A stretch of DNA of 64,000 bases, taken from NCBI RefSeq assembly GCF_006345805.1, contig NC_043000.1, forward strand, positions 88,846,001 through 88,910,000. Reading direction: 5' to 3'. Positions 37,625-39,196 of this stretch are shown piece after piece. The position numbers and the translations under genes were made by a program. Source of the stretch: Octopus sinensis (taxonomy: Eukaryota). Numbering within the stretch: position 1 is the stretch's first letter; each line of letters starts with the position of its first letter. A model generated the notes under the pieces. That model did not search any database and had not been told where the DNA came from. It saw only the letters and a program-made list of their open reading frames with translations.

Positions 37625-37820
37625 ATAATATATACTAAGCAATAAAGGGTTTAGCAACGAATTGCCTTACCACATACCGAATTGAGAAATAGCAGTCAAA
37701 GAGTTATAGCTATTTCTTCTACTAAAAAGAGAGATCTCAGTAAAAACAGCAATTGGAAGGCAGACACAAACAGGTAAGAGAGAATGAATTGACGGCAATC
37801 TATCATACAATTTTAAGTTA

Positions 37821-37921
37821 TCTACGGACGTACGTTTCGAAATCAAGTTTTTAGGAAAGCATAAGAATTAAATATCAAATAATTCTATCTTACCAAAAAC
37901 TTCTTTTCTCTTCAGCGTAGA
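37821..37921 (-). ncRNA. Type I hammerhead ribozyme, intact core (copy 1)
   Basis: UCUACG-CUGAAGA-GAAA..long stem II (AAGUUUUU/AAAAACUU, AGAAUUA/UAAUUCU)..UUUC-GAAA-CGUACG-UC^CGUAGA. Confidence 0.9.
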
Positions 37922-38414
37922 ATACTATAATCATAAATGATTATATATTGAATTTTGAGATACTAGAAGGCACCAACTCAACTCAGTATCAGAGCGAGCT
38001 AGAATCCGCAACTAGTATCACCAAATTCAATGTGTGAATGAAACGATTGTGTCACCAGACCCTTCCCACCCGCGTGTAGCCAAAACAAGATGCTGTGGTC
38101 ATCTACTGAGATAAAATATGGTTATCCGTAATAATGAAGGGTGAAATTAATTAATTTGGAATAATTATCAATTACACCAAGTAGTCTTCGGCATGTAAAA
38201 GCCTCATTCGAGGAAAATTTAAGTAATACTAAGCAATAAAGGGTTTAGCAACGAATTGCCTTACCACATACCGAATTTAGAAATAGCAGTCAAAGAGTTA
38301 TAGCTATTTCTTCTACTAAAAAGGGAGATCTCAGTAAAAACAGCAATTGGAAGGCAGACACAAACAGGTAAGAGAGAATGAATTGACGGCAATCTATCAT
38401 ACAATTTTAAGTTA

Positions 38415-38515
38415 TCTACGGACGTACGTTTCGAAATCAAGTTTTTAGGAAAGCATAAGAATTAAATATCAAATAATTCTATCTTACCAAAAACTTCTTT
38501 TCTCTTCAGCGTAGA
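38415..38515 (-). ncRNA. Type I hammerhead ribozyme, intact core (copy 2)
   Basis: Same motif as copy 1, 594 nt away. Confidence 0.9.
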
Positions 38516-39196
38516 ATACTATAATCATAAATGATATATATTGAATTTTGAGATACTAGAAGGCACCAACTCAACTCAGTATCAGAGCGAGCTAGAATCC
38601 GCAACTAGTATCACCAAATTCAATGTGTGAATGAAACGATTGTGTCACCAGACCCTTCCCACCCGCGTGTAGCCAAAACAAGACGCTGTGGTCACCTACT
38701 GAGATAAAATATGGTTATCCGTAATAATGAAGGGTGAAATTGCTTCCAATTGCTGTTTTTACTGAGATCTCCCTTTTTAGTAGAAGAAATAGCTATAACT
38801 CTTTGACTGCTATTTCTAAATTCGGTATGTGGTAAGGCAATTCGTTGCTAAACCCTTTATTGCTTAGTATTACTTAAATTTTCCTCGAATGAGGCTTTTA
38901 CATGCCGAAGACTACTTGGTGTAATTGATAATTATTCCAAATTAATTAATTTCACCCTTCATTATTACTATATATATATATATATATTAATAAATGAAAT
39001 ACAACGTATGCATATATATAAACATATATGTACGTACCTACCGCTACATGTACATATACACGCATATATGAGTACAGGACACCAAAGGGACGTCGAACAC
39101 AAAGAGAAACGAAAACAGACACAAACCAAAGGAAATGGACATTTTTTTAAAAACAACAAAAAAATGGAGTACAGGACAATTAACACAACGAAAAAA

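What the first reader, a model, noticed from the sequence alone, without database searches (positions are those of the whole stretch)
37633..38968. Young 594-bp tandem element with two intact type I hammerheads and an inverted truncated end
Seen: two near-identical monomers, each with a perfect core (CUGAAGA/GAAA/GUC), a 6-bp stem I, an unusually long stem II (about 70 nt) and a palindromic CGUACG stem III. There is no ORF, both flanks are (TA)n, and one end carries a 226-bp inverted segment. Known: palindromic minimal stem III favours dimeric HHRs in Penelope-like elements and non-LTR retrozymes, and tandem plus inverted pLTRs are a Penelope hallmark. Inference: a minus-strand transcript would self-excise a 594-nt unit able to circularise, larger than the few-hundred-nt monomers usual for animal retrozymes.
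Basis: partly seen in the sequence, partly recalled or inferred. Interest (0 to 1): 0.8.

Follow-up and report, generated by a model that had tools for sequence, protein, structure and literature searches.

The report
Hammerhead retrozyme riding Penelope-like elements
This is one young copy of an abundant protein-free repeat carrying a hammerhead ribozyme motif with an unusually long second stem; it was likely copied into TA microsatellites by a Penelope-like retrotransposon, and its mirror-image insertions almost always pair one short end with one long end, a testable clue to how such elements insert.

Summary
Observation confirmed: two complete type I hammerhead motifs on the minus strand, predicted cut sites 594 nt apart, no ORF, (TA)n flanks, a 226-bp inverted arm. 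The unit is a high-copy young family (at least 1,978 exact ribozyme 24-mers in G000), so not an assembly artefact. None of 52 sampled loci is joined to a Penelope ORF: it is a non-autonomous element of the known animal non-LTR retrozyme kind, and 594 nt lies inside the published 51-972 bp range. That fits priming from both DNA ends at the two Penelope-type start sites, with a 105-nt tail rather than 30-40. The 51-76-nt stem II covaries across several families and also sits behind autonomous Penelope-like ORFs here. Cleavage, circular RNA and the mobilising partner are not shown. The scan earlier noted similar Penelope-type non-coding units in other genomes.

The parts
37558..37631 (.). Left (TA)n target tract
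37632..37826 (-). Terminal partial unit, +1 to +195 after the cut site; its end at 37632 is fixed end A, joined to (TA)n
   Evidence: 486 exact A/(TA)n junctions in G000
37821..37921 (-). Type I hammerhead 1 (stem I 37921-37916 with 37826-37821; core from 37915; 70-nt stem II 37908-37839; cut after 37827)
37827..38420 (-). Complete 594-nt unit from cut site to cut site (predicted self-excised monomer)
   Evidence: fold z about -6 against 40 shuffles
38065..38076 (-). Short box conserved in sister families (E-box-like; function untested, candidate promoter element)
   Evidence: alignment of five unit types
38116..38361 (-). Region +60 to +305, conserved at about 70% in sister families and holding both fixed ends A (38226) and B (about 38123-38116); likely the site bound by the borrowed reverse transcriptase
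   Evidence: function inferred from PMC11167929
38415..38515 (-). Type I hammerhead 2 (core from 38509; stem II 38502-38433; cut after 38421)
38421..38741 (-). 5'-truncated upstream unit (+273 to +594)
   Evidence: L001
38743..38968 (+). Inverted arm, +68 to +293; outer end at 38968 falls in fixed end zone B
38969..38987 (.). Right (TA)n tract, followed by an unrelated repeat

Best explanation
The element is a protein-free 594-nt tandem unit with one hammerhead motif per unit, dispersed as hundreds of young copies in TA microsatellites, and is likely a non-autonomous retrozyme copied by a Penelope-like (PLE) reverse transcriptase-endonuclease that would prime from both ends of the cut DNA on a probably circular RNA. 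Steps: (1) transcription of a tandem copy (inferred; runs guessed to be RNA hold the unit); (2) hammerhead cleavage and ligation to a 594-nt circle (inferred, about 0.5); (3) a PLE protein binds the conserved +60 to +305 region and cuts (TA)n (target shown, enzyme inferred, partner not found); (4) cDNA starts at site A (about +195) or B (about +300) (fixed ends shown), runs through one or many cut sites (shown) and stops at random (shown); (5) when both DNA ends are extended, one starts at A and the other at B (pairing shown, cause inferred) and the two cDNAs are joined head to head, mostly through short microhomology, giving the inverted form seen in the window. My odds: identity as a PLE-type non-autonomous retrozyme 0.9, two-site double priming 0.75, circular template 0.5.
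For: Copy number: 781 + 1,197 exact 24-mers across the cut site, reversed controls 0. Unbiased sample (all 52 loci behind the first 100 listed hits): 76 of 80 3' ends at A (47) or B (29), 78 of 80 on (TA)n; 24 free 5' ends scattered; of 28 inverted loci 24 A/B, 1 A/A, 0 B/B, 3 with one end elsewhere (p 7.7e-7 against the 0.5 ceiling for independent choice). Second sample of 19 loci chosen by another motif: 11 inverted, 8 A/B, one 310/195, 2 with one end elsewhere, none A/A or B/B (read). A barely alignable 535-nt sister family: 14 of 14 inverted rows with both ends in view pair a short with a long end. Units within a locus differ by 0.46-0.49%, between loci by 1.8%, and both arms carry one haplotype. 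71 of 80 arms cross a cut site, lengths fit one exponential (mean 631 nt, KS p 0.34), only 3 of 80 5' ends lie at +3/+4; arrays reach about 15 units, or 10 + 9 inverted, some with 0.0-0.1% internal divergence. Ribozyme stems covary across families with unrelated stem sequences. A long-stem-II hammerhead of this type lies downstream of GIY-YIG-bearing PLE ORFs in G000. Two internal start sites, cutting and extension of both strands, AT-rich targets and a predicted dimer are shown for a PLE in vitro (PMC11167929).
Against: No autonomous PLE sharing the unit's sequence was found among the PLE families examined, though only the best 116-150 candidates of each protein search were scored. No run on record as RNA holds it, and contigs cannot show cleavage or circles. 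Of 162 within-array variants 143 are singletons, but 11 are shared by adjacent units and 7 are scattered, which pure rolling on one circle does not predict and which points to later local duplication, a mixed linear template, or assembly polishing. Long arrays exist that could serve as linear donors (11 units, with a haplotype close to the window's). In the monomer fold stem III is barely populated (p about 0.04). In vitro the PLE start site did not differ between top and bottom strand in bulk. L111 and L112 share a flank and may not be independent.
Confidence: 0.6

Rival explanations
1. Same element and same PLE enzyme, but the template is an uncut linear read-through transcript of a long array; the ribozyme is slow, protein-dependent or serves another step, and no circle is needed.
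For: Long homogeneous donors exist; adjacent-unit shared variants (11 of 162); PLE hammerhead cleavage was dispensable for insertion and no RNA-seq reads ended at the cut site (PMC11167929); 8 of 9 tested frog dimers did not cleave.
Against: Daughters can only be shorter than linear donors, yet several haplotypes keep long arrays; no pile-up of 5' ends at any start site; ribozyme stems are conserved with covariation across families; circles are shown for other invertebrate retrozymes (PMC7229834).
Confidence: 0.3
2. The inverted arm arises by self-priming or template switching on an antisense or folded template, as proposed for rotifer Penelope elements, not by priming from the second DNA end.
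For: Model proposed from palindromic junctions in PMC3846280; junction microhomologies are common here.
Against: Self-priming does not explain why the second outer end sits on a fixed site and almost always the other site; the two arms break at unrelated positions and each can span several units.
Confidence: 0.08
3. These are ordinary truncated terminal repeats (pLTRs) of an ORF-bearing Penelope element.
For: All insertion hallmarks are those of PLEs; related long-stem-II ribozymes do belong to autonomous PLEs here; the partner search was incomplete.
Against: 48 arms in 52 loci run at least 289 nt upstream of the cut site and all continue into the next unit, none into an ORF; PLE protein matches in these loci are separated by microsatellite or face the other way; 19 further loci likewise.
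Confidence: 0.04
4. A satellite spread and lengthened by DNA-level recombination, the ribozyme being incidental.
For: Some adjacent-unit variants.
Against: Fixed 3' ends, random 5' ends, (TA)n targeting and dispersal over many contigs are retrotransposition marks.
Confidence: 0.03

Closest known systems
Animal non-LTR retrozymes (Cervera and de la Pena 2020, PMC7229834; Li, Clavereau and Pollet 2026, bioRxiv 10.64898/2026.07.22.740005)
   Same: Dispersed tandem non-coding units, one type I hammerhead per unit, low GC, strongly self-paired monomer, proposed PLE dependence; size inside 51-972 bp.
   Different: Stem II region of 70 nt instead of a short hairpin; above the 170-400 nt of the experimentally studied circles; frequent inverted arms and two fixed ends (the word 'inverted' does not occur in the 2020 main text); RNA circles not shown here.
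Endonuclease-bearing Penelope-like elements: pLTR, inverted 5'-truncated copy and tail (PMC3846280, PMC8557442, PMC11167929)
   Same: Two alternative 3' ends downstream of the hammerhead, tail usually on one arm only, head-to-head inversion, microsatellite targeting.
   Different: No ORF; tail about 105 nt rather than 30-40; both arms can be multimers of one unit.
Autonomous Penelope-like family of G000 with C-terminal GIY-YIG and an asparagine-rich insert (L271, L272, L275, L279, L282)
   Same: Type I hammerhead with a 53-56-nt stem II region and palindromic two-pair stem III; ends on (TA)n.
   Different: No alignable sequence with the 594-nt unit; its 3' end lies only about 65 nt after the ribozyme; not shown to be the mobiliser.
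Non-autonomous Chlamys elements such as MRC1 (PMC8557442, passage)
   Same: Non-autonomous PLE derivatives forming multicopy head-to-tail insertions.
   Different: Those share 3' sequence with a known autonomous family and mostly lack canonical hammerheads.

Membership tests
Animal non-LTR retrozyme | Tandem units each with a complete type I hammerhead | tested here: met
Animal non-LTR retrozyme | No coding capacity, low GC | tested here: met
   GC 0.31-0.35 in the covering 2-kb bins
Animal non-LTR retrozyme | Unit size (170-400 nt in the 2020 paper; 51-972 bp in the 2026 preprint) | tested here: met
   594 nt is outside the first range and inside the second
Animal non-LTR retrozyme | Multi-copy, dispersed, strongly self-paired monomer | tested here: met
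   z about -6
Animal non-LTR retrozyme | Self-cleavage of the transcript | not testable with these tools
   needs in vitro transcription
Animal non-LTR retrozyme | Expressed as linear and circular monomer RNA | tested here: inconclusive
   three runs only guessed to be RNA cover the unit; contigs cannot tell circle from tandem
Autonomous EN+ Penelope-like element | ORF with RT and GIY-YIG endonuclease between the repeats | tested here: not met
   0 of 52 and 0 of 19 loci
Autonomous EN+ Penelope-like element | Two alternative 3' ends (tail) downstream of a hammerhead | tested here: met
   76 of 80 ends at two sites about 105 nt apart
Autonomous EN+ Penelope-like element | Inverted 5'-truncated arm | tested here: met
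   28 of 52 loci
Autonomous EN+ Penelope-like element | Microsatellite or AT-rich target bias | tested here: met
   78 of 80 3' ends on (TA)n
Autonomous EN+ Penelope-like element | Target-site duplication | tested here: inconclusive
   cannot be read inside (TA)n
Canonical type I hammerhead | Conserved core, G-C pair at the base of stem II, UH cut site, 6-bp stem I | tested here: met
Canonical type I hammerhead | 4-bp stem II capped by a short loop 2 that docks on loop 1 | tested here: not met
   4 bp are followed by an internal loop and a long extension; no Rfam match; docking itself untested

The most novel reading that the evidence does not exclude
A clade of 520-600-nt circular-RNA parasites with a long-stem-II hammerhead that standard descriptors miss is actively expanding in this genome, and its insertions record an unrecognised rule of Penelope-type retrotransposition: a dimeric RT-endonuclease primes the two ends of one break obligatorily from the two different start sites and rolls on one RNA circle, which would explain the tail, the inversions and the tandem arrays of the whole class in one mechanism.
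Probability: 0.35. Interest if true: 0.7.

Novelty: new variant of a known kind. Interest (0 to 1): 0.45.

Why it matters
How Penelope-like elements form tandem and inverted insertions is named as an open question (PMC8557442), and how retrozymes are mobilised is stated to be unresolved. A 594-nt non-coding template with two start sites 105 nt apart and a near-strict short/long pairing gives a countable genomic signature and a compact test substrate. The long stem II means hammerhead surveys using Rfam or short-loop descriptors would miss thousands of motifs in such genomes. The element itself is a member of a known class, not a new kind of system.

Tried and rejected
Rfam scan: no hammerhead match, only (TA)n-driven microRNA noise. 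Assembly duplication: rejected. Partner search, all negative for shared sequence: GIY-YIG search, 150 of 5,029 candidates scored, 30 loci plus 20 wider stretches; sister-family motif and DNA searches, 60 loci; a PLE fragment beside a sister copy in L133/L193 proved a separate decayed piece but led to further PLE families with ORFs over 1,000 aa, none linked; the asparagine-rich PLE clade, 150 of 16,969 candidates scored; the 535-nt sister family, 30 loci. Expression: no RNA holder listed; this is no evidence either way. Haplotype and within-array tests could not separate circle from linear multimer. Idea that the U-G wobble subfamily makes longer arrays: 3.3 against 1.9 ribozymes per locus on contig C1, Mann-Whitney p 0.19, not supported. 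Pile-up of 5' ends at the cut site: only 3 of 80. A 36-codon hydrophobic frame in the unit is not conserved in sister units. Literature: searches for cephalopod hammerheads, twin priming in PLEs and long stem II found no description of this ribozyme form or of the pairing count; the library lacks most subscription papers, the paper on small PLE hammerhead variants (PMC5785218) was not held, and supplementary ribozyme alignments of PMC4209133, PMC7229834 and PMC8557442 and the preprint's tables were not seen and may already show long stem II forms.

Full report
Observation. The sequence and a scan of both strands of the window give two type I hammerheads on the minus strand, cores 38509-38421 and 37915-37827, with a 6-bp stem I, a 70-nt stem II region and a two-pair stem III closing a palindromic tetraloop. 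The predicted cut sites are 594 nt apart. The units differ at 4 substitutions and 1 indel in 515 bases. The 226-nt inverted arm (38743-38968) is 100% complementary to 38128-38353. There is no ORF. Rfam reports no ribozyme. In the predicted fold stems I and II form with probability 0.85-0.99, also stem I in the whole circle, while stem III is weak (about 0.04); the palindrome allows an 8-bp intermolecular helix. Below, +n counts bases after the cut site on the ribozyme strand.

A young, abundant family. The window lies in G000 (2.72 Gb). A DNA search found 991 candidates, 40 scored, full-length matches 96-100% identical. An exact 24-mer across the cut site occurs 781 times and a one-letter variant that keeps stem I as a U-G pair 1,197 times, reversed controls 0; clustering on contig C1 suggests roughly 400 and 360 loci. 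The host looks like a cephalopod; this is my recalled impression of its repeats and was not tested.

Anatomy of insertions. I fetched all 52 loci behind the first 100 listed hits. Of 80 3' ends, 47 lie at about +195 (A), 29 at about +300 (B) and 4 elsewhere; 78 of 80 abut (TA)n; the 24 free 5' ends are scattered. Both ends use a few bases shared with the TA tract. Twenty-eight loci are inverted, head to head. Of these 24 have one A and one B end, 1 is A/A, none B/B, 3 have one end elsewhere; 24 of 25 exceeds even the 50% ceiling of independent choice (p 7.7e-7). Single-orientation loci are mostly A (20 of 24). The window copy is +195 on the left and +293 on the right. A second set of 19 loci, which I picked from the hits of another motif on C1 that lacked the first motif, long arrays included, has 11 inverted insertions: 8 A/B, one 310/195, 2 with one end elsewhere. 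A distant 535-nt sister family shows short/long pairing in 14 of 14 inverted rows with both ends in view, out of 30 rows (the query included the tail, so one long end was selected for, and two rows are probably one duplicated insertion).

Template. Units within one locus differ by 0.46% (same arm) and 0.49% (opposite arms) against 1.8% between loci, and subfamily haplotypes are shared by both arms, so each insertion is built at once from one template type. 71 of 80 arms cross at least one cut site, their upstream lengths fit one exponential (mean 631 nt, KS p 0.34), and only 3 of 80 5' ends sit at +3/+4. The template is thus uncut or re-ligated at the ribozyme. Arrays reach about 15 units, or 10 + 9 in two arms, several with 0.0-0.1% internal divergence. 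This suits a circle, but 11 adjacent-block and 7 scattered shared variants among 162 and the existence of long potential donors keep a linear multimer or later local expansion open. Three runs only guessed to be RNA cover the whole unit and have contigs across the cut site; this shows neither strand nor circle.

Relatives and partner. A conserved block from +60 to +305 is shared at about 70% with sister tandem families of 518-565 nt, which end at the same two sites (2,264 hits of one motif). Hammerheads with stem II regions of 51-76 nt occur in several families whose stem I, stem II base and stem III palindrome differ in sequence but keep pairing. One such ribozyme lies downstream of PLE ORFs with a C-terminal GIY-YIG domain and an asparagine-rich insert (ORFs in several of 30 loci; 16,969 candidates), so the long stem II is a local PLE trait. 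G000 also holds intact PLE ORFs of 775-781 aa (RT and GIY-YIG by Pfam) and of over 1,000 aa that end on (TA)n, and one inverted copy of the latter also has the short end on one arm and the tail on the other (L217). None shares alignable sequence with the 594-nt unit. In the 52 loci, 48 arms run at least 289 nt upstream of a cut site and all continue into the next unit. The family is non-autonomous as sampled; its mobiliser is unidentified.

Comparison with the literature. Li, Clavereau and Pollet 2026 (bioRxiv; parts 1-3 of 5 read, supplements not seen) define non-LTR retrozymes as tandem units with type I hammerheads, 51-972 bp, derived from PLE terminal repeats, with cleavage in 1 of 9 tested. 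Cervera and de la Pena 2020 (passages) show 170-400-nt circles and call a two-pair stem III the invertebrate norm. Frangieh et al. 2024 (parts 1-2 of 4 and passages) show two internal start sites that define the tail, cutting and extension of both strands, a predicted dimer, no bulk strand difference in start site, and a protein-assisted, dispensable ribozyme. Craig et al. 2021 and Arkhipova et al. 2013 (passages) describe the inverted arm and a 30-40-bp tail often at one end only, (TA)n bias, and a self-priming model. Cervera and de la Pena 2014, two reviews and two cephalopod genome papers were seen as passages. So the class, the tail and the inversion are known. Searches found no account of the long-stem-II form or a count of the pairing rule, within the limits of the library.

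Earlier scan notes (by sequence nothing) describe Penelope-type non-coding units in other genomes; one pointed me to the 2013 rotifer paper.

Verdict. A real, correctly described feature; a new variant of a known kind. What works like a PLE insertion is not a member of the autonomous class, as it has no ORF. Shown: ribozyme motif with covariation, copy number, fixed ends, pairing, target bias, one template type per locus. Inferred: cleavage, circle, the enzyme and double priming. Interest 0.45.

Noticed in passing
window 38991-39972: A different, older repeat shares the TA tract: 355-bp inverted arms at 97%; 3,569 candidates in G000 at 84-94% identity; no hammerhead seen and no PLE protein match in 8 loci.
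   Followed up: partly
L065 1574-5274, L069, L066-L068: A very young PLE family (781-aa RT and GIY-YIG frame, 98.6-100% identical copies) has a separate upstream 479-aa frame with no Pfam match above cut-off, a promoter-like 3' region and only a degenerate hammerhead core.
   Followed up: partly
L271, L272, L275, L279, L282: Abundant PLE clade with an asparagine-rich insert before the endonuclease, like the inserts described in rotifer Penelope elements, and a long-stem-II hammerhead in its terminal repeat.
   Followed up: partly
L214, L217, L219: PLE frames of 1,042-1,120 aa with C-terminal endonuclease and microsatellites inside their 3' regions; clade not determined.
   Followed up: no
L138, L152, L159, L165, L356: Sister tandem families of 518-565 nt and 535 nt; the sampled L138 and L152 units lack a recognisable hammerhead core yet keep the two-end pattern, which may mean the ribozyme can be lost.
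   Followed up: partly
L239-L243: The subfamily with a U-G pair in stem I has the longest arrays (8-17 ribozymes per locus), but the overall difference is not significant.
   Followed up: yes
L236: One variant is shared by all units of one arm and absent from the other, as expected if the two arms used two different monomer RNAs; a single case.
   Followed up: partly
L005, L008, L017: Two complete inverted insertions with different junctions lie side by side in one TA tract.
   Followed up: no
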